This document shows, in pieces, positions 221 to 62,203 of a stretch of 64,000 nt of DNA. The translations under genes and the position numbers were made by a program. The DNA is from an uncultured bacterium (lineage in GTDB: Bacteria; Patescibacteriota; Minisyncoccia; Phycocordibacterales; GWA1-40-21), in the NCBI GenBank assembly GCA_903832855.1, contig CAILDB010000014.1, forward strand, positions 144-64,143, given 5' to 3'. The notes under the pieces are model-generated. The model did not search any database. It was not told the origin of the DNA and worked only from the letters and a program-made list of their open reading frames with translations. The stretch's first letter is position 1; the number at the start of each line of letters is the position of its first letter.

Positions 221-2530
221 ATGAACATTCAAGAACTCAAAAGACAATTTCTAGAATACATTGAAATAGAGCGTGGTCGTGCACTTAAAACTATTGAAAA
301 TTACGACCGCTATCTCACGCTATTTTTTGAACAGACAAAAATTACCGACCCAAAAGATATTACAAACGAAAAAGTTCGAGAATTCCGTGTCTGGCTCAAT
401 CGCAGTCCTGGCGCAAAAAGCTATCATCTCCTCGGTGAGTCTGCGACCCCTGGTGGAACAATGAGTCGAAAGACACAAAATTTTTATCTTATCGCCTTGC
501 GAGTTTTTTTGAAATTTCTCACTCGTCGCGGTATCACTTCCCTTTCGGCAGATAACATTGAACTTGCAAAAGTTGCTGAACGCACTGTGGACACTATTTC
601 TCCGACAGAATTAAAACGCCTTTTGGACGCGCCAAATAAAGAAGAAAATCCCGAACGCCGTGCCCGAGACAAAGCAATTTTGGAACTTCTTTTTTCTACC
701 GGCCTTCGTGTCTCCGAACTTTGCTCTCTCACAAACGATTTGGATTTAAAGATGGATGAATTTTCCATTCGCGGAAAGGGCGGAAAAGTGCGAGTGGTTT
801 TCCTTTCAGATGAAGCAAAAAGAGCGATAAAAGATTATTTGGTTTTACGAAAAGATATGTCTGACGCGCTCTTTACTCAAATTTCCGAGGACCCGTCCGA
901 AAATAAAGGTTCCGTCATTGCGAGAAGCAAAGCGACGAAGCAATCCAGAAAATTAAAGATGGATCCCGGCCTCCGCCGGGATGACAGAGAGAAAAATAAT
1001 CCGCACAACTTTTTAGACAAAAGAACCATCGCAAGAATAGTCAAACGCTACGCGACTATCGCTGGCATCACTCACAAGGTTACGCCCCACACTTTAAGAC
1101 ATTGCCTTCACCCCGACACTTTAATTTTTGTTCCTCATTCTGTCCTTTCTGCAAAAGATCTGATGAAAAGCAAAACCAAAAAAATAATTTCTATTGATTT
1201 TATGAAAATAAAAGATGAGTTTTCACAGATAACATCCAGAAGTACTCATTTTTCAGAAGATTTAACAAACATTTGGGCTGGAGGTTATGAAATATCTGTC
1301 TCCCCAGAACACAGGTTTTTTACATTAACTCAAAAGGGTATCGAGGAAATTTATACAAAAGATGTCAAAAACGGCGACTATCTCATGGGTATTAAAAAAA
1401 CTGGATTTAATAAACTTATAAAAGGAAGCAAAGCAGACATAGCATTGTGGAGATATATCGGATATATCCTGGGAGATGGCGTTGTTAGTGAAGCTAGACG
1501 TGGTGTAATTATTACCGATAAAAATATTAAATTTCTTGAATTCTATCAGAAACTCATAAAAGATGAACTGGGGTTTACTTCTCAAATTTATCCCCTTAAA
1601 CATTCAAATTCATTTACTTTATCTTATTACTCAAAATTATTTGTCGCTAAACTCAGAAAAATAGGCATAAATGGAAAAGCAAAAGAAAGAAGGGTCCCAC
1701 AATCTGTATTCAGTGCCAGCAAAGAAGAAATAAAATCTTTAATCGCCGGAATATATGATGCCGAAGGAAATGAAGGTACTGGTGGATTAAAATTCTTTTC
1801 TGCAAGCAAGATGTTTCTCAAGGATATTCAAATGTTACTATTGATAATTGGAATTGATGCTCATCTTTACGAAAGAAAAAGAAAAGTCAGATTACCAAAC
1901 ACAAACAAAATTATTAATCACACCATATACACGCTTCAAGTAATCCATAGGCCAGATCAACTATCTTTTAGAGAGAAAATCCCAACAAAAAAAAGGTTAT
2001 TCGTAGAAAATGAGTTTAATGGAGAAAAAATTCCAGTAAGAGAAATTTTGAAGGATATTTATCATAATATGCCTGATAAATGGCACAATTTTTCTAGATT
2101 ATTGAAAAAAAAAGAAGGGATAGATATATATAGATATATAGGAAACACGACAAAAATCGTTCCAAACAAGGAAACTCTCTCAACAATAATAAAATATATG
2201 GGAAAGGTTAAGGTAATAGATGCCCGAATCCAATTATTAAAAAAATTAGTTAGTAATAAAACGATTAAGTGGTTAAGAGTCAGAAAAATAGAGAAAAAAC
2301 GATACAATGCCGAAGTTTATGATTTTTCAGTTGCAAAGAATGAAAACCTGATTACTGATGGCTTTGTCTCTCATAACTGTTTTGCCACCGATTTGCTTAG
2401 TAACGGTGCCGACATCCGTTCCGTTCAAGCAATGCTCGGCCACGCCAACATCGCCACCACGCAGATCTACACTCATGTCACCGACAAACACCTCCGCGAC
2501 ATTCACAAGAAATTCCACAGTAAAAGATAG
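221..2530 (+). CDS. XerC/XerD-family tyrosine recombinase (N-terminal SAM-like domain), interrupted by an intein (1103-2377); the ~344-aa extein carries an in-frame repeat insertion.
   Basis: N-terminus [29 protein letters not shown]-extein [34 protein letters not shown] matches the XerD/XerC C-terminus. Catalytic HTLRH is immediately followed by the intein Cys. Confidence 0.8.
911..986. repeat. Composite palindromic repeat inserted in-frame in the recombinase extein (encodes [12 protein letters not shown]...[10 protein letters not shown]): a tccgtcattgcgag...gcaatccag unit plus the GC hairpin atggatcccggcctccgccgggatgaca.
   Basis: The same hairpin family recurs at 26447 and 56738. The cgtcattgcga unit recurs at 22492. 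Confidence 0.5.
1103..2377 (+). mobile_element. Intein (425 aa) with a LAGLIDADG homing endonuclease domain, inserted after the catalytic HTLRH of the recombinase.
   Basis: Block A: CLHPDTLIF. Block B: [17 protein letters not shown] motifs: [10 protein letters not shown] and [13 protein letters not shown]. Block F: AEVYDFSV. Block G: ITDGFVSHN followed by a +1 Cys. Confidence 0.8.
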
Positions 2531-2941: not shown

Positions 2942-3745
2942 ATGAAACTCATTTCTTGGAACGTAAACGGCCTGCGCGCCTTAGAAAAAAAAGATAAATG
3001 GAATCAGGTTTTTGAGTTTGATCCGGATATTATTTGTTTGCAAGAGACAAAGGCACATCCCGAACAACTTTCCGAAGGCGTCCGTTCCCCCGCCGGCTAC
3101 CACGCATTTTTTGATCATTCAAAAGTGAAAAAAGGTTACAGTGGCGTGGCAATTTACATTAAAGATAAACTTTTCTCCTCTGTCATTCCCGCGCAGGCGG
3201 GAATCCAGTTCCCTAAAATTGAATACGGCCTTGGAATTTCAAAATTTGACGAAGAGGGTCGCACACTCGTAGCATATTTCAAAAATTTTGTTTTAATAAA
3301 TATTTATTTTCCAAACGGCGGAGGCGGACAAGACAGATTAGATTTCAAAATGGAATATTATGATGAGTTTTTGAAATTTATAGAAAAGCTGCGCAAATCC
3401 GGCAAAAGCGTGATTTTTTGCGGAGATGTAAACACCGCACACAATGAAATCGACATCGCCCACCCAAAAGAAAATGAAAATCACAGCGGATTTATGAGAA
3501 TTGAAAGAGATTGGATGGACAAACTTGTTTCGCTCGGTTGGACAGATACTTTCCGCGCCTTGCATCCAAAAGAAATTAAATATTCTTGGTGGGATATGAA
3601 AACATTTGCTCGTGACCGCAACATCGGCTGGCGTCTGGATTACTTTTTCGTCTCGCCCGACCTCGCGCCAAAGGTCTCTCGTGCAGAAATCTTAAATAAT
3701 GTTTTTGGCTCCGACCATTGTCCAGTTTTGCTGGAATTGAAATAA
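2942..3745 (+). CDS. xth: Exodeoxyribonuclease III (AP endonuclease).
   Basis: MKLISWNVNGLRA...DIICLQETK...SDHCPV: canonical Xth/APE motifs. Confidence 0.85.
   Translation: MKLISWNVNGLRALEKKDKWNQVFEFDPDIICLQETKAHPEQLSEGVRSPAGYHAFFDHSKVKKGYSGVAIYIKDKLFSSVIPAQAGIQFPKIEYGLGISKFDEEGRTLVAYFKNFVLINIYFPNGGGGQDRLDFKMEYYDEFLKFIEKLRKSGKSVIFCGDVNTAHNEIDIAHPKENENHSGFMRIERDWMDKLVSLGWTDTFRALHPKEIKYSWWDMKTFARDRNIGWRLDYFFVSPDLAPKVSRAEILNNVFGSDHCPVLLELK
3182..3208. repeat. Palindromic unit gtcattcccgcgcaggcgggaatccag embedded in-frame in xth (encodes VIPAQAGIQ).
   Basis: Perfect 9-bp stem gtcattccc/gggaatccag-type; a related unit occurs at 22549. Confidence 0.45.
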
Positions 3746-3823: not shown

Positions 3824-3925
3824 ACAAAGATTTGATGTTTCGAACTGTCACCGGATGGTGGCGTGGCTGGGACAACCAGCATAGAGCAACTTATCGGAGA
3901 GAGGCCCTTCGGGGCTTTTCTTTTA
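3824..3925 (+). ncRNA. Candidate ~100-nt small RNA or leader: GC-rich body ending in a UUCG-loop terminator.
   Basis: Promoter at 3789-3817; hairpin aggccc-ttcg-gggctt plus a T-run at 3902-3925. Confidence 0.2.
3902..3925 (+). terminator. Rho-independent terminator (stem aggccc/gggctt, UUCG loop, T-run).
   Basis: Read directly. Confidence 0.5.
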
Positions 3926-3995: not shown

Positions 3996-5495
3996 ATGGC
4001 AAAAGACATGCAAATAAAGGTGTTTAACTTTATTAAAAATTTTGAAAAGAAAAAGAAGTTTTCCCCTTCATTAAAAGAAATCTGTAATAAATTTAACTAC
4101 TCCTCTGTCTCGACGGCGTCCTTTCACATCAAGAACCTTCAGGATAGCGGATTTTTAGTTAGAGAAAAAGGTAAACCCAGATCAATAGAAACCTTTGATT
4201 ATGAAAAACTAATTCGCATACCATTTTTAGGTAAGATATCAGCGGGAAGACCAATAGAGAGAATGTCAGAAAGAGAGTTTATTGCTATACCACAAAGTAA
4301 AATTCCAAGAACAGGAAATATATTCGCACTTGAGGTGTCCGGCAATAGCATGATTGAAGAAAATATCAATGATGGAGATGTTGTACTAGTTAAAGAACAA
4401 AACGTGGCCGATAACGGGCAGAAAGTTATCGCCTTGGTTGATAATTATGAAACAACATTAAAAACTTTTTACAGAGAAAGAAATCAGGTAGTCCTCAAGC
4501 CAGCAAATAAAGAATTTGAGCCAATAATTATTCCAAAAACAAAACAACTCGAAATACAGGGGGTTGTCATTGATGTTATAAAAAATGAAGGCAATAAAGT
4601 CCCGGCTGAAAAAATAATCAAAAGATCAGACGAACTTCCCCTAAACAAGATAATCCTAAATGATGCGGTGGAAGAATTAAAAAGGTTACCAGACGACAGC
4701 TGTGATGTAATAATAATTGACCCCCCATATAATATAGGGAAAGATTTTGGAAATAACATAGACAAAAGAGAACTCAGTGAATATATAAGATGGTCAAAAA
4801 GTTGGATTGACCAATCTATAAGAGTGTTAAAACCTACTGGAACGATGTTTATCTATGGGTTTAGTGAAATTCTTGCCCATTTATCAGTTGAAATATCCAT
4901 AAACAAAAGATGGCTAATTTGGCATTATACAAATAAAAATGTCGCCTCATTAAATTTTTGGCAAAGAAGCCATGAATCAATAATTTGTGCATGGAAAGAT
5001 AAGCCTGTATTTAATAAAGATTCGGTCAGAGAGCCATACACGGAAGGATTTTTAAACGGCGCTGCTGGAAAAATCAGAAAAGGAACAGTGGGTAGGTTCA
5101 GCAGTAGTGGGCAAGAAACGGTTTACAAGGCACATGAAGGCGGTGCCCTACCCCGTGATGTTATCAAGATCCCTGCATTAGCCGGAGGAGCAGGAATGAA
5201 TGAACGTTGGTTCATTTGTAAGACATGTAATAAAATCTGCGAGCCTAGAAAATTAAAGGAACATCTTACGCACATTACTGAAAAACACCCGACGCAAAAA
5301 CCGTTAGAACTTTGTAGAAAATTAATTAAGTCAGCGATGCCTAACCAAAACGGGGTGGTATTGGTTCCTTTTGTCGGTTCTGGAGCCGAATGTGCAGCGG
5401 CAAAAGAATTAGGACAAAATTATATCGGATTTGAGATCAACCCAGATTATATAGAACTTGCTGAGAAAGTGATTTCCTCAACTAAAATTAAATAG
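3996..5495 (+). CDS. Fusion protein: LexA-like repressor (wHTH plus S24 peptidase with AG cleavage site, Ser in SGNSM, Lys in LKTF) fused to a beta-class DNA methyltransferase.
   Basis: The N-terminal ~200 aa align along the full length of LexA. C-terminal MTase motifs are DPPY (motif IV), HPTQKP and PFVGSGAE (motif I); motif IV precedes motif I, which defines the beta class. Confidence 0.7.
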   Translation: MAKDMQIKVFNFIKNFEKKKKFSPSLKEICNKFNYSSVSTASFHIKNLQDSGFLVREKGKPRSIETFDYEKLIRIPFLGKISAGRPIERMSEREFIAIPQSKIPRTGNIFALEVSGNSMIEENINDGDVVLVKEQNVADNGQKVIALVDNYETTLKTFYRERNQVVLKPANKEFEPIIIPKTKQLEIQGVVIDVIKNEGNKVPAEKIIKRSDELPLNKIILNDAVEELKRLPDDSCDVIIIDPPYNIGKDFGNNIDKRELSEYIRWSKSWIDQSIRVLKPTGTMFIYGFSEILAHLSVEISINKRWLIWHYTNKNVASLNFWQRSHESIICAWKDKPVFNKDSVREPYTEGFLNGAAGKIRKGTVGRFSSSGQETVYKAHEGGALPRDVIKIPALAGGAGMNERWFICKTCNKICEPRKLKEHLTHITEKHPTQKPLELCRKLIKSAMPNQNGVVLVPFVGSGAECAAAKELGQNYIGFEINPDYIELAEKVISSTKIK

Positions 5496-5499
5496 GTGC

Positions 5500-6195
5500 C
5501 TATTTAATTTTCTGATCTATTTTCCTTTTCTCCCCTTCAAAAGTTAATGGGGTAAAGACGACAAACCCATTTTTAAATCTCTCTAAATTTTTATTATTTG
5601 TAAAATCGGTGTAGGGTTTCCTCCACTCCCCTTTTTTTGTTTTGGGGTTACTAAAAATATCAGAAGGCGGTACAATATACAAAATATCAATAAATTCCCC
5701 CTCAAGTTTAGTTTTTGAAGCGTCTTTATCCCTTCTAACCTCCCTACTATGAGTTTCTTTTTTAACTTGGTAGTTTAGTTTATAACCTTTATAATTTATC
5801 CTAAAATCAGCCCCTTTATGATCTAATTCCTCACTCATTTCAACACTTTTTTCTCCAAATACCGATTCGGCGACATACCCCGCATGTATTTGAGTGATTA
5901 TACTTGCCCATGTTCTATATATTCTGGCTGGTAAGCCAAGATAAAAACATTTCTGGCACATCTGTATCTTTTTTCTAAAAGTTTCTAAATTGTTACTTAA
6001 AGTAGATTTGTATTCATTATAAAAATCATCAAAATTCAAAAACTTTTTATCATTCCAATAAACTTTATATAGAAAAGATATTGCCTGAATTTCTTTCGGC
6101 AAATCCATTTCTACTATTTTTATCGGACGAAATCTTTCTCTATAAGAACTAAGATCAACCGTTTTCAGAAATTTTGTAAATTTATCTAAATGCAT
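5500..6195 (-). CDS. Putative type II restriction endonuclease, convergent with and 4 bp from the MTase.
   Basis: Convergent R-M layout. DLSSYRERFRPIKIVEMDLP...LGLPARIYRTWASIITQIH...YQVKKETHSRE...KNGFVVF resembles, from memory, a TaqI-family endonuclease; this is not verifiable here. Confidence 0.4.
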   Translation of the reverse strand: MHLDKFTKFLKTVDLSSYRERFRPIKIVEMDLPKEIQAISFLYKVYWNDKKFLNFDDFYNEYKSTLSNNLETFRKKIQMCQKCFYLGLPARIYRTWASIITQIHAGYVAESVFGEKSVEMSEELDHKGADFRINYKGYKLNYQVKKETHSREVRRDKDASKTKLEGEFIDILYIVPPSDIFSNPKTKKGEWRKPYTDFTNNKNLERFKNGFVVFTPLTFEGEKRKIDQKIK

Positions 6196-14352: not shown

Positions 14353-14370
14353 CTATTTGGGTTAAAAATT

Positions 14371-14549
14371 CTAGGAAACTCAAATTCCTTTCTCACTAAT
14401 GGCTCCGCAATCTAGAAAATCATAGTCAACTTTCTATCGAAAAATTCATGAGTCGCATTCGCTCCGGCAGCCAGATGAATTTTTCAGAAAGTTTCCTTGA
14501 TTTTCTGATTGTTCCGCCAGAGCGTTCGAAAGAAACTTGAGTTTCCTAG
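14371..14549 (+). repeat. MITE-like ~180-bp element (Rep-B copy 1) with 22-bp terminal inverted repeats ctaggaaactcaaattcctttc / gaaagaaacttgagtttcctag and a central palindrome gaaaaattcat...atgaatttttc.
   Basis: Its inverted counterpart at 62030-62203 has a highly similar core but different outer arms. Confidence 0.6.
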
Positions 14550-14591
14550 AATTTTTTTCAGATATTTGCAATAATATGTTATATTTCTCTG

Positions 14592-22468: not shown

Positions 22469-22709
22469 GTTAGTTGTTTAAGTTTTTTCCGTCATTGCGA
22501 CCCCGTACTTGATACGGGGGAAGCAATCCAGTCATTCAGTTCCGTCATTCCCACCGTTCTTTTCCCCCGTTTGTCATCCCGTTGAAGGTCGTGAGCTTGG
22601 GTTGGGACCCAAGCGCAAGATCGGAGCGCGACGGCGCGAGATGGGCCCTGCAGGCTTTTCAGCAGAAAAGCACTGTGGGGATCCATCCAATAATTCCAGA
22701 TGAATTTTT
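22469..22709. repeat. GC-rich island of at least 5 small palindromic units (cgtcattgcga, cgtcattccc and gcttgggt-tggg-acccaagc-type hairpins, cgcgacggcgcg, gcttttcagcagaaaagc).
   Basis: Units related to those embedded in the recombinase and xth. ORFs 22492-22722 and 22509-22703 are spurious. Confidence 0.5.
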
Positions 22710-26446: not shown

Positions 26447-26474
26447 ATGGATCCCGACCTGCGTCGGGATGACA
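26447..26474. repeat. GC hairpin repeat atggatcccgacctgcgtcgggatgaca (family with 958-986 and 56738-56765); the stem carries a compensatory g/c to a/t change.
   Basis: Compared directly. Confidence 0.55.
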
Positions 26475-26489
26475 GACGGGGACATTTGC

Positions 26490-26570
26490 AAACAGCCACG
26501 AAGTAAAGTTTTTTACAAACGTCCCTGGCCGGACTTGGGACGTTTTAAAGAACTTTATGAAGTGGGTGCT
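26490..26570 (+). repeat. Short variant of the GTCCCTGGCCGGACTTGGGAC palindromic repeat family.
   Basis: Core gtccctggccggacttgggac flanked by aaacag...gaagtggg. Confidence 0.55.
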
Positions 26571-26613
26571 TGCAAACAGGATATTCAAATAATTTTTATG
26601 ATATAATATAAAA

Positions 26614-30641: not shown

Positions 30642-31895
30642 ATGGACAAGAAAAAATCAATAATTTTAATACTCGGAGGAATAATAGTTATTTTAATAAT
30701 AGCTCTTTATTTTTATTTTAGAACTAGCACGGTCGCACCAGTTCCCGTAAATAATATACCAGACACTTCCACCGGTTTTGGCAACACATCTGCAAACATA
30801 AATACTTCAAATGGAAATGGTTTTGGTACTTCCTCAAATTCTTCTGGCACTTTAGTAAATAGTTCAACGACTCAAGCCCAACTCAAACAAATTTTTAGTG
30901 AACCAAATGCTGGAGCTGTAATATTTAAATCAGGCGGTGAAGAAAAAATTCGTTTGGTAGAAAAAAGCAATGGTCACATACAAGAGGCGAGCTTCGTTTC
31001 AAGTCAGGTGGTAAGAATTAGCAATACCACAATACCCAAAATATATGAAGCGCTCTGGGACAAAACAGGTGGAAAAGTGGTCTTGCGATACATAAAAGAT
31101 GAAACAGGAAAAATGCAAACATATTCCGCAAAAATAAATGTTTCCACTTCTACATCAAATGAATCCGTTGGCATTATTTCCGGAACATTTTTACCAGAAA
31201 ATATCCGCGAGCTTTCGGTAAACAAAAATATTTCTAAAGTATTTTACTTAATGGAAACGTCAAATGGGGGCTCTGCTGGCTTTACTGCAAACCTAGATGG
31301 CACCCAAAGCAAGCAGGTTTTTTCTTCCGAATTAAAAAACTGGAATATCGGATGGGCAGGGGACAACACTCTCTCGCTTTTGTCACGACCAAGTTATACT
31401 TTGAAAAATATTTTATTTTCTCAAAATGCTTCGGGTGGAAGTTTAGAAAAAATCATCGGCAATATGTATGGTATGACAACCCTTGTGGGAGATAATGGAA
31501 ATAAGGTGGTTTATTCTCAAAATGTGCGAAGTGTGCCAACTCTTGGATATTATAATGTAAAAACAGATGTAGATAATAACCTTTCTCTTAGCACAATCGC
31601 CGATAAATGTGTCTGGAGTAATGTGAGTGCAAATATCGTGTATTGTGCTGTTCCAAAGACGATGCCGAGATTTTCTTATCCTGATGACTGGTATAAAGGG
31701 AAGGTCTCTTTTTCTGATGATTTCTGGCAAATAAACTTGGATAATAATACAACAACCTTACTTTATCAGACGAAAGGCAATGAAAATGTAGATGCGACCA
31801 ACCTAATAGCAAGTGCAAAAGACGATTACATTGTATTTACAAACAAAAAAGACCTTTCTCTCTGGTCTTTCAAAACTTCTCCTCAAACAAACTAA
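30642..31895 (+). CDS. Membrane-anchored, S/T/N-rich extracellular hypothetical protein.
   Basis: N-terminal TM IILILGGIIVILIIALYFYF. Confidence 0.5.
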   Translation: MDKKKSIILILGGIIVILIIALYFYFRTSTVAPVPVNNIPDTSTGFGNTSANINTSNGNGFGTSSNSSGTLVNSSTTQAQLKQIFSEPNAGAVIFKSGGEEKIRLVEKSNGHIQEASFVSSQVVRISNTTIPKIYEALWDKTGGKVVLRYIKDETGKMQTYSAKINVSTSTSNESVGIISGTFLPENIRELSVNKNISKVFYLMETSNGGSAGFTANLDGTQSKQVFSSELKNWNIGWAGDNTLSLLSRPSYTLKNILFSQNASGGSLEKIIGNMYGMTTLVGDNGNKVVYSQNVRSVPTLGYYNVKTDVDNNLSLSTIADKCVWSNVSANIVYCAVPKTMPRFSYPDDWYKGKVSFSDDFWQINLDNNTTTLLYQTKGNENVDATNLIASAKDDYIVFTNKKDLSLWSFKTSPQTN

Positions 31896-31916
31896 TGGCA
31901 AGGTCAGACCTTGCCA
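31896..31916. terminator. Bidirectional terminator hairpin tggcaagg-tcaga-ccttgcca between convergent genes.
   Basis: Read directly. Confidence 0.5.
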
Positions 31917-31923
31917 TTAGAGT

Positions 31924-32391
31924 TTAGTCTTTTACGTATTTTATTACTATTCTTCTAGAAAGTCCTTCGCCAACTGACTCGGTTTTTATATTTGCTTGTC
32001 CTGTAAGCACGCCGTGAACTACCAATCTTTCATATGATGACATTGGCTCCATTTCTACATCTACTTTCATATCTTTAGCTCTATTTGCAAGCATTATGGC
32101 TTGATTTTTTAGTCCCAAAATTTTACTTGAATGATAATCGTTTATATCAATAGCAAAAGTCGAAATAATCTCTTCTGTTCCTGCCTTTTTGGCAACCATT
32201 TTCTTTATCAAAAGGAAGAGTGCATTAAATGTTTCACCGTCTTCACCAATAAGAAGTCCGGACTCTTTTGTTTTTATGACAAAAATCTTTTTATTTGTTA
32301 TTTCATCAAATGTTTCTTCTATGGAATCAAAGGAAACACCCATACCTTTTACCATCTCCTCTATTATTTTTTTTATTTCTTCGTTTGTCAT
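31924..32391 (-). CDS. jag: Jag/KhpB (R3H RNA-binding) protein.
   Basis: Position after yidC; KH/R3H-like sequence ...RLVVHGVL... Confidence 0.65.
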   Translation of the reverse strand: MTNEEIKKIIEEMVKGMGVSFDSIEETFDEITNKKIFVIKTKESGLLIGEDGETFNALFLLIKKMVAKKAGTEEIISTFAIDINDYHSSKILGLKNQAIMLANRAKDMKVDVEMEPMSSYERLVVHGVLTGQANIKTESVGEGLSRRIVIKYVKD

Positions 32392-33656: not shown

Positions 33657-33705
33657 ACAGACAATATAGCGTATTTAAAAAAGTAAGTCAAATTTAATTT
33701 TTTAA

Positions 33706-33788
33706 AAACAGACCCGCAACAAAGTGTCTAAAAAGTGTCCCTGGCCGGACTTGGGACACTTTTAGGCATTTTGTGAAGGGGATGGTTT
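33706..33788 (+). repeat. GTCCCTGGCCGGACTTGGGAC-family palindromic repeat (83 bp), near-identical to 58842-58925.
   Basis: aaacagacccgcaacaaagtgtctaaaaagtgtccctggccggacttgggacacttttaggcattttgtgaagggg. Confidence 0.6.
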
Positions 33789-33818
33789 AAAAAAATTAAT
33801 CGTAACTATTAATAAAAA

Positions 33819-41338: not shown

Positions 41339-41471
41339 AGGAAAAGACGCGAGAAAATTTTTCTAACAGCCTCTTCGCAAAGTACTTAAAAACGTCCCAA
41401 GTCCGGACAGGGACGTTTGTAAGCACTTTGCTTCGCGTCTGTTTTAAGAAAAATTTTCTCGCGTCTTTTTC
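41339..41471 (-). repeat. GTCCC...GGGAC-family repeat in reverse orientation, nested in the outer palindrome aggaaaagacgcgagaaaatttttctaacag / ctgttttaagaaaaattttctcgcgtctttttc between convergent genes.
   Basis: Reverse complement matches 58842-58925. Confidence 0.55.
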
Positions 41472-48033: not shown

Positions 48034-50472
48034 ATGGAGAAAGGGAAAAACAAAAAATTAGTACTACTTGATTCTCACGCGATAATTCATCGTGCGTATC
48101 ACGCATTGCCGGATTTTGTCTCAAGCAAGGGTGAGCCGACGGGGGCTTTATATGGGCTTTCCACAATGCTTCTTGCCATAATTACCGAACTTAAACCGGA
48201 CTATATAGTGGCTTGTTTTGATTTGCCAAAGCCGACTTACAGACACGAAGCATACAAAGAATACAAAGCGGGTAGAGCGAAGACAGATGAAGGTTTAATT
48301 TCTCAGCTAAAAAGGTCTCGTGATATTTTTACTGCATTAAATATTCCGATGTATGATAAAGAAGGTTTTGAGGCGGATGATGTTATTGGCACGATAGTTG
48401 AAGAAACAAAAAAAGATAAAAATTTGGAGGTGGTGATTGCGTCTGGTGATATGGATACGCTTCAGCTCGTGGAAGATGGCAGAGTGAAAGTTTACACTTT
48501 GAAAAAGGGAATTAAAGACACGATTATCTATGACGAAAAAGCAGTGGTGGCAAGATTTGGATTTAAACCGAGACTTTTGACGGATTACAAGGGCCTGAGA
48601 GGTGATCCATCGGATAATATTATCGGTATAAAAGGAATTGGAGAAAAAACGGCGGAAATTCTTATACAAAATTTCGGGACAATTGAAGAAATTTACAAGA
48701 AAATAAAAAAAGACAAAAAAGCCTTTAAAGATGTAAAAATTACCGACAGAATTGTAAAACTTCTAGAAGATGGTGAGGAAGAGGCAAACTTTTCCAAAAT
48801 GCTTGCGACTATTAGGCGAGATGCGCCAATCAATTTTTCTCTTCCAGAGAAAGAATGGAAAGAAAATTTTGATGATTCAAAAATAAAGACGCTTTGGGCA
48901 GAACTTGACTTTAGGACGCTTGGTTCGCGTTTAGATGATGTTTTGAAGGACAAAAAGCCTATGGCAAGGTCTGACCTTGCCATAGGCAAGGACTTGGAGG
49001 CTTCGTCTCCAAGTGGACTATTTGCAAGTCCGCAAGACCTTGAGAAGCAAAAGGAACTTTTTATTGCCACATGGCTTTTGAATTCAAATACGACGAACCC
49101 TACTTTGGAAGATGTTTTGAACCTTACTGGTACAAAAGATTTGGATGAAGCTGAGAAAATTTTGATGAAGGACCTGAAAAACAAAGGATTAGAGAATGTT
49201 TATGAAAAAATTGAAAAGCCACTTATTCCTATAATTGAAAAGATGGAAAAAATGGGTGTGAAAGTGAATAAAGAAGAAATAAAAACTCTTTCGACAGAAT
49301 ATCACAAAGTTTTGGCAGAAAAAGAAAAGCAAATTTGGAAACTTGCAGGGACGGAATTTAATGTGAACTCTCCAAAGCAGATGGGGGAAATACTTTTCAA
49401 CAAACTTGGACTCAAAGCGAAGAATCAAAAGAAGACGGGAAGTGGTGGACTTTCTACAAAAGAATCGGAGCTTGAAAAAATGCGTGATATGCACCCAATA
49501 ATTCCTCTTATCTTTGACCATCGCGAATTACAAAAACTTCTTTCCACTTACATTGATGTTATCTCTGAAATCCTAGATGAAAAAGATAGATTACACGCAA
49601 AATTTTTGCAGACAGGCACGACGACAGGCAGAATGTCTTCGCAAGAGCCAAATTTGCAAAATATCCCGACAAAGAGCGAGCTTGGCAGAAATGTCCGAAA
49701 AGCTTTTATCGCCGAAAAAGGTTTTAAACTAGTTTCTTTTGATTACTCACAAATTGAAATCCGTATCGCAGCCTTTCTTTCCGGTGATGAAAAACTTTTG
49801 GAAATTTTTAGAAAAGGTGAAGATGTACACACTGCAGTTGCATCGGAAGTTTTCGGTGTTCCGCCAGAAAAAGTGGATAAAGAAATGCGAAGACGGGCAA
49901 AAGTAATAAATTTTGGAATAATGTATGGAATGGGCGTGATGGCACTCAAGCAAAATATAAATTCAACGCGAGAAGAAGCACAGAGATATTTGGACGAATA
50001 TTTCAAAAAGTTTTCTGGCCTTGCGAGGTATTTGGATAGTGTGAAGGCCGAAGCCGAGAGAAATGGCTTCACAGAAACACTTTTTGGCAGAAGAAGATAT
50101 TTTGAAGGGATGAAATCGCCACTTCCATATATCCGTGCAATGGCAGAAAGAATGGCTATAAATGCGCCTATTCAGGGAACCGAAGCGGACATCATTAAAC
50201 TTTCAATGATAAAAATTGATGAATTTTTGCAAAACCCTAAATCGTTCGGAAACGATCGGGCGCAAGGAAAACTAACAGAAAAAGTTCGCCTAATTTTGCA
50301 AGTTCACGACGAACTCGTGTATGAAATTGAAGAAAATCTCGTCGAAAGCATTTCAAAAGAAATAAAAAATATAATGGAAAATGTTACAACTCCAGAACAA
50401 ACAAAAGGCGTCATCTGCCAAGCCGATGTTTCGGCGGGGAATAATTGGAGAGATATGGAAAAAATAATCTAA
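48034..50472 (+). CDS. polA: DNA polymerase I (5'-3' exonuclease plus polymerase domains).
   Basis: Motif A DYSQIEIRI; motif B RRRAKVINFGIMYG; motif C QVHDELVYE. Confidence 0.9.
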   Translation: MEKGKNKKLVLLDSHAIIHRAYHALPDFVSSKGEPTGALYGLSTMLLAIITELKPDYIVACFDLPKPTYRHEAYKEYKAGRAKTDEGLISQLKRSRDIFTALNIPMYDKEGFEADDVIGTIVEETKKDKNLEVVIASGDMDTLQLVEDGRVKVYTLKKGIKDTIIYDEKAVVARFGFKPRLLTDYKGLRGDPSDNIIGIKGIGEKTAEILIQNFGTIEEIYKKIKKDKKAFKDVKITDRIVKLLEDGEEEANFSKMLATIRRDAPINFSLPEKEWKENFDDSKIKTLWAELDFRTLGSRLDDVLKDKKPMARSDLAIGKDLEASSPSGLFASPQDLEKQKELFIATWLLNSNTTNPTLEDVLNLTGTKDLDEAEKILMKDLKNKGLENVYEKIEKPLIPIIEKMEKMGVKVNKEEIKTLSTEYHKVLAEKEKQIWKLAGTEFNVNSPKQMGEILFNKLGLKAKNQKKTGSGGLSTKESELEKMRDMHPIIPLIFDHRELQKLLSTYIDVISEILDEKDRLHAKFLQTGTTTGRMSSQEPNLQNIPTKSELGRNVRKAFIAEKGFKLVSFDYSQIEIRIAAFLSGDEKLLEIFRKGEDVHTAVASEVFGVPPEKVDKEMRRRAKVINFGIMYGMGVMALKQNINSTREEAQRYLDEYFKKFSGLARYLDSVKAEAERNGFTETLFGRRRYFEGMKSPLPYIRAMAERMAINAPIQGTEADIIKLSMIKIDEFLQNPKSFGNDRAQGKLTEKVRLILQVHDELVYEIEENLVESISKEIKNIMENVTTPEQTKGVICQADVSAGNNWRDMEKII

Positions 50473-56737: not shown

Positions 56738-56777
56738 ATGGATCCCGGCCTGCGCCGGGATGACAATCAGAATTGTC
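56738..56777. repeat. GC hairpin repeat atggatcccggcctgcgccgggatgaca plus adjacent hairpin gacaat-caga-attgtc.
   Basis: Family with 958-986 and 26447-26474. Confidence 0.55.
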
Positions 56778-58826: not shown

Positions 58827-58939
58827 GCTGAATTTTTTGGAAAACAGACGCGAAGCAAAGTGTCTAAAAAGTGTCCCTGGCCGGACTTGGGACACTTTTT
58901 AGGCATTTTGCGAAGTGGATGTTTTCCAAAAAATTCAGC
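58827..58939 (+). repeat. GTCCC...GGGAC-family repeat (core 58842-58925) nested in a perfect 20-bp outer palindrome gctgaattttttggaaaaca / tgttttccaaaaaattcagc.
   Basis: Core near-identical to 33706-33788. Confidence 0.6.
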
Positions 58940-62029: not shown

Positions 62030-62203
62030 GCAAAAGCAAAACACTTTTCGAACGCTCTGGCGGAGCAGTCAGAAAATCAACGAGATTTTTAGAAAAATTC
62101 ATCTGGCTGCCGGAGCGAATGCGACTCATGAATTTTTCGTTAAAAATTGAGTATGATTTTCTAGATTGCGGAGCCTTTAGTGAGAAAAGAGTTTTGCTTT
62201 TGC
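62030..62203 (-). repeat. Rep-B MITE-like element, copy 2 (reverse orientation) with different terminal inverted repeats gcaaaagcaaaacactttt / aaaagagttttgcttttgc.
   Basis: Core is the reverse complement of 14385-14545. Confidence 0.6.

What the first reader, a model, noticed from the sequence alone, without database searches (positions are those of the whole stretch)
221..2530. Tyrosine recombinase (XerC/D type) with a LAGLIDADG intein at the catalytic RH|S site and an in-frame palindromic-element insertion
The extein is a canonical Xer recombinase. After HTLRH the sequence is replaced by a 425-aa intein with all splicing blocks and two LAGLIDADG motifs, resuming at [10 protein letters not shown]. 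Inteins are normally reported in replication/repair enzymes, so a site-specific recombinase host is unusual. Separately, 911-986 inserts about 35 residues ([29 protein letters not shown]) made from two palindromic repeat units seen elsewhere in the window, analogous to Rickettsia palindromic elements colonising ORFs. The gene may be active only after splicing, or it may be decaying.
Basis: partly seen in the sequence, partly recalled or inferred. Interest (0 to 1): 0.55.

Follow-up and report, generated by a model that had tools for sequence, protein, structure and literature searches.

The report
Self-splicing intein inside a Xer recombinase
A recombinase gene of a tiny "candidate phyla radiation" bacterium is interrupted by a mobile self-splicing protein element (an intein with its own DNA-cutting enzyme) and by a small hairpin-repeat insertion; both are real and look tolerated, and I found no paper describing this kind of intein host although it is common in sequence databases.

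Summary
ORF 221-2530 is intact (769 aa). It encodes a Xer-like tyrosine recombinase split after HTLRH by a 425-aa class-1 intein (nt 1103-2377) with all splicing residues and two LAGLIDADG motifs. Removing the intein gives HTLRH|CFATDLL, exactly the uninterrupted sequence of syntenic intein-free orthologues (up to 88% identical), so the empty site exists.

The intein is not a one-off. More than 100 clusters from Patescibacteria carry it at the same site. It forms a discrete family found only in tyrosine recombinases. Both the intein and the recombinase are under purifying selection, so the gene is not decaying. The window's allele sits alone inside an intein-free clade, which points to acquisition by homing.

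The second insertion (914-985, 24 codons) is a convergent doublet of short hairpin repeats with GTCAT...ATCC ends. It lies in a disordered, length-variable loop. These units belong with the Neisseria dRS3/NTS "Ssn-related motif" repeats rather than with Rickettsia palindromic elements. One near-consensus NTS copy also sits in frame in the neighbouring xth gene.

I found no paper describing a natural intein in a tyrosine recombinase. Verdict: a correct, well-read finding, and a new member of known kinds.

The parts
221..2530 (+). Complete precursor ORF (769 aa plus stop): Xer-like tyrosine recombinase interrupted by an intein
   Evidence: The identical protein is on record from 43 contigs and is listed in 61 collection blocks.
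221..1102 (+). N-extein (aa 1-294): SAM-like N-terminal domain plus the first part of the catalytic domain, with R163 (707-709), K186, H290 and R293
   Evidence: Pfam; residues invariant in 114 alleles; 79% nt identity to the intein-free orthologue L001.
914..946 (+). Repeat unit A, GTCATTGCGAGAAGCAAAGCGACGAAGCAATCC, translated as [11 protein letters not shown]
   Evidence: Unique in the window; absent from orthologues; one mismatch from a copy in an alphaproteobacterial MAG (L008); family present in many phyla; 5 of 6 frames open.
947..960 (+). 14-nt A-rich spacer between the two convergent repeat units
961..985 (-). Repeat unit B, GTCATCCCGGCGGAGGCCGGGATCC on the minus strand: 8-bp GC-rich hairpin, translated as (M)DPGLRRDD on the plus strand
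   Evidence: Copies at 26449-26473 and 56740-56764; hairpin -15.4 kcal/mol; one loop base away from the published SRM pattern.
1103..2377 (+). Intein, 425 aa (aa 295-719): Hint splicing domain with an inserted LAGLIDADG homing endonuclease
   Evidence: AF2 pLDDT is mostly above 90. Foldseek top hits are the TliVMA intein (E 2e-21, TM 0.70), PI-PfuI and PI-SceI. There is no counterpart in the syntenic L001.
1103..1105 (+). Cys1 codon (block A nucleophile)
   Evidence: Invariant in 114 alleles.
1301..1312 (+). Block B, S-P-E-H (aa 361-364), in place of the usual TxxH
   Evidence: H364 is invariant. The first position is S or T across alleles.
1457..1483 (+). First LAGLIDADG motif, IGYILGDGV, with D419
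   Evidence: D419 invariant; Pfam LAGLIDADG_3.
1742..1771 (+). Second LAGLIDADG motif, [10 protein letters not shown], with E515
   Evidence: D513 and G516 invariant; E515 conserved in at least 90%.
2315..2377 (+). Blocks F and G: VYDF...ITDGFVSHN, ending in His718-Asn719
   Evidence: TIGR01443 intein_Cterm scores 28.9 bits against a cut-off of 15.6. D701, S717 and N719 are invariant.
2378..2527 (+). C-extein (aa 720-769): Cys+1, then FATDLL...LGH(741)...TQIY(750)TH with the tyrosine nucleophile (2468-2470)
   Evidence: 79% nt identity to L001.
3181..3208 (+). Related element outside the stated coordinates: an NTS-like unit, TGTCATTCCCGCGCAGGCGGGAATCCAG, in frame inside the neighbouring xth-like gene. 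It forms the core of a 13-aa insertion.
   Evidence: 27 of 28 positions match the published Neisseria NTS consensus. The insertion is absent from the L001 orthologue.

Best explanation
What it is. This is the chromosomal Xer-like tyrosine recombinase gene of a Patescibacteria (CPR) bacterium, and it carries two independent, tolerated insertions.

(1) The intein. A full-length class-1 intein sits between His294 and Cys720, in the middle of the helix that carries the catalytic His-x-x-Arg.
- Inferred mechanism: the 769-aa precursor is inactive, because H290/R293 are separated by 425 residues from the conserved H741 and the tyrosine nucleophile Y750.
- Splicing would follow the standard route: N-S acyl shift at Cys295, trans-thioesterification to Cys720, cyclisation of Asn719, then S-N shift.
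- The products would be a 344-aa recombinase with the native HTLRH-CFATDLL sequence and a free 425-aa LAGLIDADG endonuclease.
- That endonuclease would cut intein-free xer alleles, and repair would copy the intein in (homing). This explains why the window's allele is the only intein-bearing one inside an otherwise intein-free clade.

(2) The repeat doublet. A convergent pair of short GTCAT...ATCC hairpin repeats (72 nt, 24 codons) lies in a disordered, length-variable surface loop.
- The pair is of the dRS3/NTS 'Ssn-related motif' type.
- It is translated as filler sequence, and 5 of 6 reading frames of each unit are open.

Shown versus inferred. Shown: anatomy, boundaries, empty site, conservation, distribution. 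Inferred: splicing, endonuclease activity, homing, and neutrality of the loop insertion.
For: Intact ORF and domain calls.

Intein boundaries and empty site:
- Cys1, block B [ST]xxH, two LAGLIDADG motifs, and blocks F/G with HN|C are all present. They are invariant or at least 90% conserved in 114 alleles.
- The predicted spliced junction equals the sequence of intein-free orthologues. P0121 is 88% identical and P0122 85%.
- P0122's contig L001 is syntenic with the window at 72-81% nt identity. It lacks exactly nt 1103-2377.

Structure:
- In the precursor model the intein has pLDDT above 90 but the C-extein is below 50.
- In the spliced model a continuous helix 289-302 crosses the junction and the C-extein rises to 80-86.
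- Fold matches are homing-endonuclease inteins and I-DmoI for the insert, and XerA/XerD/IntI4/XerH for the spliced product.

Selection: against the P0002 allele the extein has pN 0.197 and pS 0.720, and the intein has pN 0.184 and pS 0.750.

Distribution:
- The 120 best 90%-identity clusters listed all share this architecture; 107 of them could be split into extein and intein by pattern. Intein length is 410-430 aa, and the +1 residue is Ser in 93 and Cys in 14.
- In the 50%-identity library, 28 clusters match the intein at E below 1e-30. The five most distant of those I scanned with Pfam all have Phage_integrase hosts, and the closer full-length ones carry the intein at the Xer position. The next relatives are at most 29% identical and sit in RadA, eRF1 and radical-SAM proteins.

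Homing:
- In an NJ tree of 221 exteins the window allele is nested 11 nodes deep in a clade of 110 whose other 108 members are intein-free.
- P0002 and P0003 exteins are equally distant from the window (73-74%), but their inteins are 70% and 54% identical to the window's.
- The intein has 31% GC against 43-51% for the exteins.
- Synonymous codons next to the junction match intein-bearing alleles (weak statistics).

Repeats:
- 6 copies in the window against 0.24 expected.
- They are absent from orthologues.
- The loop has pLDDT below 50.
- The published NTS/SRM definitions are matched.
- Convergent doublets are the dominant arrangement in other phyla: 65 against 6 divergent and 2 tandem.
Against: - Nothing here is experimental. 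Splicing, endonuclease activity and Xer activity are all inferred.
- The TIGR01445 intein N-terminal model scores below its cut-off (16.2 against 24.5). Block B has Ser where Thr is usual.
- The spliced protein misses the equivalog cut-offs for XerD, XerC and XerA, so its exact role (chromosome dimer resolution) is assumed from family and conserved chromosomal context.
- dS is saturated, so the dN/dS values are only rough.
- The extein tree is neighbour-joining on a biased sample (the top hits of two searches).
- Unit A fails the strict SRM pattern and is only a weak hairpin (-8.5 kcal/mol).
- No GIY-YIG (Ssn-like) gene was found in the 64 kb.
Confidence: 0.87

Rival explanations
1. The gene is a decaying pseudogene. 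The recombinase has been disabled by two insertions and the intein or endonuclease is no longer functional.
For: There are two insertions in one gene. The C-extein is poorly placed in the precursor model. The protein scores below the Xer equivalog cut-offs.
Against: There is no stop or frameshift in 769 codons. All recombinase catalytic residues and all splicing and endonuclease residues are intact and conserved across 114 alleles. pN is far below pS in both extein and intein. The identical protein is on record from 43 contigs. An intein-free orthologue scores just as low against the Xer models, so the low score is a lineage trait.
Confidence: 0.03
2. The intein is domesticated. It is kept because conditional splicing, for example through a Cys1/Cys+1 redox trap, gates Xer activity. 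Its endonuclease is no longer used for mobility.
For: The intein sits in the catalytic helix, so splicing necessarily controls activity. The family is conserved across several CPR lineages. The window's clade has Cys at both splice nucleophile positions.
Against: The distribution is sporadic, with the closest relatives intein-free. The endonuclease acidic residues are conserved, which fits selection for mobility. Intein and extein distances are incongruent. Cys+1 is also the native residue of intein-free alleles, so it is not an adaptation to the intein.
Confidence: 0.07
3. The intein is ancient and vertically inherited in this lineage. Its absence from the 108 closest relatives reflects many independent precise losses rather than re-acquisition by homing.
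For: The outgroups of the intein-free clade (P0002, P0003, P0005 and others) carry the intein, and parsimony puts the root state at intein-present. The closest sampled intein is only 70% identical, so no recent donor is visible.
Against: It needs about ten or more independent precise deletions along the path to the window allele, against one gain. Two exteins equally distant from the window carry inteins 70% and 54% identical to the window's. Flanking synonymous codons resemble those of intein-bearing alleles.
Confidence: 0.12
4. The 914-985 segment is a Rickettsia palindromic element (RPE) family member, or simply lineage-specific low-complexity loop sequence that resembles repeats by chance.
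For: It is in frame in a coding sequence, like RPEs. The loop is low-complexity and variable in length in relatives.
Against: The units are 25-33 nt, whereas RPEs are longer (my recollection is 100-150 nt). The units recur in the window. They match or nearly match the published NTS/SRM definitions. Unit A is one base different from a copy in an alphaproteobacterial genome. The segment is absent from the orthologues.
Confidence: 0.02

Closest known systems
Homing-endonuclease-containing class-1 inteins (TliVMA/PhoVMA inteins, PI-PfuI, PI-TkoII, PI-SceI)
   Same: Hint splicing fold with an inserted two-motif LAGLIDADG endonuclease. Cys1, block B His, and terminal His-Asn followed by Cys or Ser. 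Insertion in a conserved catalytic motif of a DNA-handling enzyme. Foldseek gives E 2e-21 and TM 0.70 to 7qss, and the sequence hit to PI-PfuI has E 6e-6.
   Different: The host protein is a tyrosine recombinase, and no paper in the searched library reports such a host. Sequence identity to any non-Xer intein is at most about 29%. All named sources but one are Patescibacteria; the exception is a MAG labelled Nevskiaceae (P0069).
Xer recombinases: XerD (1a0p), archaeal XerA (5hxy, 4a8e), XerH (5jjv)
   Same: Two-domain fold with a complete R-K-H-R-H-Y catalytic set. The gene lies in a conserved chromosomal context, next to rpsO in relatives.
   Different: It scores below the curated cut-offs for XerD (226.7 against 329.6), XerC (209 against 335) and XerA (216.4 against 220). 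Between two aligned blocks it has a 58-residue loop where E. coli XerD has 25 residues. It has Cys instead of Ser after HxLRH.
Neisseria dRS3/NTS repeats and 'Ssn-related motifs' (SRM) associated with GIY-YIG ssDNA nucleases (PMC11893778)
   Same: GTCAT head, GC-rich hairpin, ATCC tail, 25-39 nt. Copy 3181-3208 matches the NTS consensus at 27 of 28 positions. Two copies satisfy the published SRM pattern against 0.09 expected.
   Different: Here they occur in a CPR genome. Three of the six copies lie in frame inside protein-coding genes, which that paper does not mention. No Ssn gene was found in the window. Unit A does not fit the strict SRM pattern.
REP/BIME/REPIN elements
   Same: Short imperfect palindromes that occur as inverted doublets with a short spacer.
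   Different: The head sequence is GTCAT, not the GT[AG]G I recall for REPs. No RAYT transposase was looked for. REPs are by definition extragenic.
Rickettsia palindromic elements (RPE)
   Same: Palindromic repeats inserted in frame into ORFs, translated, and tolerated in surface regions.
   Different: RPEs are several times longer and specific to Rickettsia (from my own knowledge). No sequence relationship was shown here.
Engineered split-intein recombinases (for example phiC31 integrase with Npu/Ssp DnaE inteins, PMC6868429)
   Same: Recombinase activity depends on protein splicing.
   Different: Those are artificial, use trans-splicing and are built on a serine integrase. This one is natural, cis-splicing and in a tyrosine recombinase.

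Membership tests
Intein (class 1) | N-terminal Cys/Ser nucleophile (block A) | tested here: met
   Cys295 is the first residue after HTLRH and is invariant in 114 alleles.
Intein (class 1) | Block B TxxH motif | tested here: met
   S361-P-E-H364. The His is invariant and the first position is S or T across alleles.
Intein (class 1) | C-terminal His-Asn followed by a Cys/Ser/Thr +1 residue (blocks F and G) | tested here: met
   VSH718-N719 then C720. TIGR01443 scores 28.9 bits against a cut-off of 15.6. N719 is invariant. The +1 residue is Ser in 93 alleles and Cys in 14.
Intein (class 1) | Hint fold | tested here: met
   The AF2 model has pLDDT above 90 over the intein. The Foldseek top hits are solved inteins. 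Pfam Intein_splicing scores 67.8 bits against a cut-off of 35.8.
Intein (class 1) | Host orthologues exist without the insert, and precise removal restores the host sequence | tested here: met
   Intein-free alleles read HTLRHCFATDLL. The syntenic L001 lacks nt 1103-2377.
Intein (class 1) | Protein splicing activity | not testable with these tools
   Needs expression of the precursor and analysis of the products.
LAGLIDADG homing endonuclease | Two LAGLIDADG motifs, each ending in an acidic residue followed by Gly | tested here: met
   GYILGD419G and AGIYDAE515G. D419 is invariant and E515 is conserved in at least 90%. Pfam LAGLIDADG_3 finds two stretches.
LAGLIDADG homing endonuclease | Site-specific cleavage of the intein-free allele, and homing | not testable with these tools
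   Only indirect support: sporadic distribution and incongruent intein and extein distances.
Tyrosine recombinase | Catalytic R-K-H-R-H/W-Y set and a two-domain fold | tested here: met
   R163, K186, H290, R293, H741 and Y750 are invariant. Fold matches to XerA, XerD, IntI4 and XerH.
XerD or XerC (equivalog) | Score above the curated NCBIfam cut-off | tested here: not met
   The spliced protein scores 226.7 for XerD (cut-off 329.6), 209.1 for XerC (335.15) and 216.4 for XerA_Arch (220). The intein-free P0121 behaves the same.
XerD or XerC (equivalog) | Acts at a dif site with FtsK to resolve chromosome dimers | not tested
   No dif site or ftsK was searched for. The role is inferred from family and chromosomal context.
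NTS / Ssn-related motif (SRM) repeats | Match to the published NTS or SRM sequence pattern | tested here: inconclusive
   3181-3208 and 56738-56765 meet the SRM pattern, and 3181-3208 matches NTS at 27 of 28 positions. Of the two units inside xer, unit B misses the SRM pattern by one loop base and unit A does not fit it.
NTS / Ssn-related motif (SRM) repeats | Hairpin-forming inverted repeat with oriented non-palindromic flanks | tested here: met
   8-bp stems in unit B and in the xth, 26449 and 56740 copies. GTC is at the 5' end and CC(A) at the 3' end in all six. Unit A is a weaker hairpin.
NTS / Ssn-related motif (SRM) repeats | Genome encodes a GIY-YIG Ssn nuclease flanked by the repeats | tested here: inconclusive
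   None was found in the 64-kb window, by a motif scan of all frames and Pfam on ORFs next to the repeats. The rest of the genome was not available.
Rickettsia palindromic elements | Elements of 100-150 nt belonging to defined RPE sequence families | tested here: not met
   The units are 25-39 nt and the whole doublet is 72 nt. The RPE length range is from my own knowledge.

The most novel reading that the evidence does not exclude
The Xer intein family may be a CPR-specific, still actively homing element that makes the cell's chromosome-resolving recombinase dependent on protein splicing. The NTS-like hairpin doublet 117 nt upstream of the intein site may be more than filler. It could be a target for an Ssn-type ssDNA nuclease that limits recombination of incoming DNA at this locus, and so influences gain or loss of the intein in naturally competent CPR cells.
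Probability: 0.1. Interest if true: 0.65.

Novelty: new member of a known kind. Interest (0 to 1): 0.4.

Why it matters
It adds tyrosine (Xer-type) recombinases to the hosts of natural inteins. The insertion point is one residue after the catalytic His-x-x-Arg motif, inside a helix, which fits the rule that inteins target catalytic motifs of DNA-handling enzymes.

It offers a natural, evolution-tested site for making a tyrosine recombinase splicing-dependent. Until now that has only been engineered, and with split inteins.

It shows that very small CPR genomes carry active-looking selfish elements in core maintenance genes.

It extends the recently described NTS/Ssn-related hairpin repeats to Patescibacteria. 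It also documents their in-frame translation inside two neighbouring housekeeping genes, a behaviour known from Rickettsia palindromic elements but not reported for this repeat class.

Tried and rejected
- **Literature for a natural intein in a tyrosine recombinase or Xer.** Six full-text searches and a check of Novikova et al. 2016 found nothing relevant. They returned only engineered split-intein recombinases and papers that mention the two topics separately. The supplement of Novikova et al. is not held, so its tables could not be checked.
- **Searching papers for the peptide strings the repeats encode.** This gave only noise. Searching the DNA strings led to the Ssn/NTS paper.
- **Viral contigs searched with the intein.** No relative was found.
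- **GIY-YIG/Ssn gene in the window.** None was found.
- **Other intein or tyrosine recombinase in the window.** tblastn found neither. The ten large ORFs scanned with Pfam contain no intein.
- **Pseudogene reading.** Rejected on the intact ORF, conservation and pN far below pS.
- **RPE membership.** Rejected on size.
- **Errors of my own.** The first doublet-counting script had an indexing bug and returned zero; it was corrected. One fixed-spacing pattern was mis-specified by one base and found nothing.
- **Co-conversion test on flanking synonymous codons.** It is suggestive only: 6 alleles on each side and many codons tested.
Full report
**1. The observation**

ORF 221..2530 on the plus strand is open for 769 codons. 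Pfam finds four things:
- an N-terminal SAM-like integrase domain (aa 9-104);
- a Phage_integrase catalytic domain in two pieces;
- an Intein_splicing domain (310-719, 67.8 bits against a cut-off of 35.8);
- two LAGLIDADG_3 stretches.

NCBIfam adds the intein C-terminal model above its cut-off and best hits to XerD, XerC and XerA. The insert runs from Cys295 to Asn719 (nt 1103-2377, 425 aa), and the host sequence resumes at [10 protein letters not shown].

**2. Is it a real intein?**

All diagnostic features are present, and they are conserved across relatives (12-sequence alignment, 114-sequence alignment):
- Cys1 is invariant.
- Block B reads S-P-E-H, with the His invariant.
- The two LAGLIDADG motifs are GYILGD419G and AGIYDAE515G. 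D419 is invariant and E515 is conserved in at least 90%.
- Block F is VYDF.
- Block G is S-H718-N719 followed by Cys. N719 is invariant.

The strongest evidence is the empty site.
- A search with the computationally spliced protein returned only intein-free proteins among the best 120. The closest are 85-88% identical on alignment.
- They read ...[17 protein letters not shown]..., the exact predicted ligation product.
- One of them, P0122 from a Minisyncoccia MAG, lies on a contig syntenic with the window: xer, a small membrane protein, xth, then further downstream ComM-like, LysM/M23 and UvrD genes. Nucleotide identity is 72-81%.
- In that contig, window 221-885 and 2376-2550 have counterparts and 1103-2377 has none.

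**3. Structure**

I made two AlphaFold models.
- The precursor, from 114 aligned sequences, has mean pLDDT 84.6. The intein is mostly above 90, but the C-extein (721-755) is below 50.
- The best fold matches of the precursor are solved homing-endonuclease inteins: TliVMA 7qss (E 2e-21, target TM 0.70), PI-PfuI, PhoVMA, PI-TkoII and PI-SceI. XerA, XerD and I-DmoI follow.
- In the spliced product, a continuous helix 289-302 spans the junction and the C-extein rises to pLDDT 80-86. The best matches are XerA, IntI4, XerD and XerH.

The intein therefore interrupts the helix that carries H290 and R293. It separates them from H741 and Y750. I infer that the precursor cannot be an active recombinase.

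**4. Decaying or functional?**

The recombinase residues R163, K186, H290, R293, H741 and Y750 are invariant in 114 intein-bearing alleles. I compared the window with the nearest intein-bearing allele, P0002 (DNA from L004):
- extein: pN 0.197, pS 0.720;
- intein: pN 0.184, pS 0.750;
- endonuclease part: pN 0.208, pS 0.737.

Synonymous sites are saturated, so the ratios are rough, but purifying selection on every part is clear. The identical 769-aa protein is on record from 43 contigs and is listed in 61 blocks of the collection. The pseudogene reading is not supported.

**5. How unusual is it?**

It is not unusual in databases.
- The full-length search returned 209 proteins at E below 1e-10. 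The 120 listed all have the same architecture, at 40-69% identity.
- Named sources are Nomura-, Wolfe-, Azam-, Kaiser-, Woese- and Berkelbacteria. One MAG is labelled Nevskiaceae, probably a binning error.
- JGI's pipeline already labels some of them 'site-specific recombinase XerD/intein/homing endonuclease'. Moranbacteria also appear.
- Intein length is 410-430 aa throughout. The +1 residue is Ser in 93 alleles and Cys in 14.

An exhaustive search of 1.84 billion cluster representatives with the intein alone gave 28 clusters at E below 1e-30. The five most distant of them scanned with Pfam are all in Phage_integrase proteins. The closer full-length ones are about 680-760 aa, with the intein starting around residues 210-290, as in Xer. 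After a gap come inteins of at most 29% identity in RadA, eRF1 and radical-SAM proteins. So this is a discrete intein family tied to one site in one host family.

It does look unreported in the literature. Six full-text searches and a check of the Novikova et al. 2016 survey found no report of a natural intein in a tyrosine recombinase. That library lacks most subscription-journal papers, so this is absence of evidence only.

**6. How did this allele get its intein?**

- The closest intein-bearing allele outside the window's own cluster is only 73% identical in the extein and 70% in the intein.
- More than 100 intein-free alleles are 70-88% identical in the extein.
- In a neighbour-joining tree of 221 exteins, the window allele and its near-identical cluster representative P0001 sit 11 nodes deep in a clade of 110. 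The other 108 members are intein-free. The intein-bearing P0002, P0003 and others branch outside.
- P0002 and P0003 exteins are equally distant from the window, but their inteins are 70% and 54% identical to the window's.
- The intein has 31% GC against 43% and 51% for the exteins. L004 shows the same offset.
- Synonymous codons next to the junction (Arg-2 AGA, His-1 CAT, Leu+6 TTG, Leu+7 CTT) follow the pattern of intein-bearing alleles. The rest of the extein is closest to the intein-free L003. This hints at a short co-conversion tract, but the sample is small.

One gain by homing is much more parsimonious than about ten precise losses. The sampling is biased and the tree is simple, so I leave about 0.12 for the vertical-with-losses scenario.

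**7. Which Xer?**

The spliced protein scores 226.7 bits for XerD (cut-off 329.6), 224.2 for PRK00283 (279), 216.4 for archaeal XerA (220) and 209.1 for XerC (335). The intein-free P0121 behaves the same. It is Xer-like but cannot be filed as XerC or XerD.

Its gene is chromosomal. In most relatives it lies next to rpsO. In the window's parent contig a diversity-generating retroelement sits upstream instead.

**8. The second insertion**

Nucleotides 914-985 read GTCATTGCGAGAAGCAAAGCGACGAAGCAATCC, then a 14-nt spacer, then GGATCCCGGCCTCCGCCGGGATGAC. These are two units with a GTCAT head and an ATCC tail, in convergent orientation. The total is 72 nt, or 24 codons.

*Recurrence in the window*
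- Unit B recurs at 26449-26473 and 56740-56764, both intergenic.
- A related unit lies in frame in the adjacent xth-like gene (3182-3206), and another at 22491-22529.
- That makes six copies against 0.24 expected.

*It is an insertion*
- Orthologues lack the doublet.
- The L001 xth lacks the 13-aa insertion.

*The loop tolerates it*
- The host loop is variable in length and low-complexity in relatives.
- It spans 58 residues where E. coli XerD has 25.
- It is predicted disordered: pLDDT below 50 over 233-259 in the precursor and 223-262 in the spliced model.
- Each unit is open in 5 of 6 frames.

**9. What the repeats are**

A DNA-string search of the literature led to the 2025 description of the Ssn nuclease family (PMC11893778).
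- The Neisseria NTS repeat is CGTCATTCCCGCGMAVGCGGGAATCYRG, which contains dRS3.
- The wider 'Ssn-related motif' (SRM) pattern is HGTCWY...RNCYNB. These are hairpin repeats cut in single-stranded form by a small GIY-YIG nuclease. In Neisseria they lower integration of transforming DNA.

Against those definitions:
- Window 3181-3208 matches the NTS consensus at 27 of 28 positions.
- The strict SRM pattern hits 3181-3208 and 56738-56765, against 0.09 expected.
- Unit B in xer misses it by one loop base.
- Unit A does not fit it. The hits lie in Alphaproteobacteria, Bacteroidota, Cyanobacteria, Chloroflexi, Zixibacteria, Legionellales, Rickettsiales and others.
- In those loci, convergent doublets dominate: 65, against 6 divergent and 2 tandem. 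One alphaproteobacterial copy differs from unit A by a single base.

The xer insertion is therefore a typical doublet of this widespread repeat class. It resembles REP/BIME doublets in form and Rickettsia palindromic elements in its in-frame lifestyle, but it belongs to neither family. No GIY-YIG gene lies in the 64 kb. The paper mentions neither Patescibacteria nor intragenic copies.

**10. Verdict**

The finding is correct in observation and in interpretation.
- The intein is an ordinary class-1 LAGLIDADG intein in an apparently unreported host family. It is common in one bacterial radiation and probably still mobile.
- The repeat insertion is a member of a recently characterised repeat class, seen here in an unreported setting.
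- Neither calls for a new mechanism.
- Interest is moderate. Novelty is 'new member of a known kind'.

Noticed in passing
window 3996-5495 (+) and 5500-6195 (-): A 499-aa protein fuses a LexA DNA-binding domain and S24 peptidase to an N6/N4 DNA methyltransferase. It lies tail-to-tail with a TaqI-like restriction endonuclease. This looks like a restriction-modification system whose methylase carries a LexA-type self-cleaving repressor module.
   Followed up: partly
window 3837-3894 (+): An Rfam DUF3800-IX RNA match (39.9 bits, gathering score 36.8) lies just upstream of the LexA-methylase gene.
   Followed up: no
window 2942-3745, insertion around 3170-3210; L001 11500-12312: The xth-like exonuclease gene carries a 13-aa in-frame insertion (LFSSVIPAQAGIQF) built on a near-consensus Neisseria-type NTS repeat. 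The orthologue in L001 lacks it but has a different 16-aa insertion (SPRSDLESEKRSALNG) elsewhere in the protein.
   Followed up: partly
window 22470-22700: An intergenic cluster of GTCAT-headed units. It includes a 39-nt hairpin (22491-22529) that shares its ends with unit A, and a long element that begins GTCATCCCG and ends GGGGATCCAT about 120 nt later.
   Followed up: no
window 26485-26576, 33694-33799, 58827-58939, 41358-41455: A second family of palindromic intergenic elements, about 92-113 nt long, with a conserved core GTCCCTGGCCGGACTTGGGAC. One copy abuts the short repeat at 26449-26473 (D1, I3-I7, I14).
   Followed up: no
window 31895-31932 and 48946-48983: A third short palindrome family, ATGGCAAGGTCAGACCTTGCCAT (I13).
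   Followed up: no
window 14364-14556 and 62046-62194: A MITE-like element of about 193 nt with 29-nt inverted ends (93% complementary). A 150-nt inverted partial copy, about 90% complementary, lies 47 kb away (I2, I6, I23).
   Followed up: no
parent contig upstream of window position 1: In the 226-kb contig carrying this exact gene, the upstream neighbours are a diversity-generating retroelement (reverse transcriptase, bAvd, Lcl_C-type target protein). In L001, L003, L004, L127, L128 and L134 the upstream neighbour of xer is rpsO.
   Followed up: no
P0131 and P0150 (intein-free Xer alleles): These alleles have Val instead of Cys or Ser at the residue that would be intein position +1 (RHVFAT). 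An intein inserted there could not splice, so such alleles may be protected against productive invasion.
   Followed up: no
window 1094-1102 and 2390-2398, compared with L003, L001, L004 and L127-L134: Synonymous codons flanking the intein follow intein-bearing alleles (Leu+6 is TTG in 5 of 6 intein-bearing alleles, counting the window, against 0 of 6 intein-free; Arg-2 is AGR in 4 of 6 against 1 of 6). The rest of the window's extein is closest to an intein-free allele. This may be a short co-conversion tract, but the statistics are weak.
   Followed up: partly
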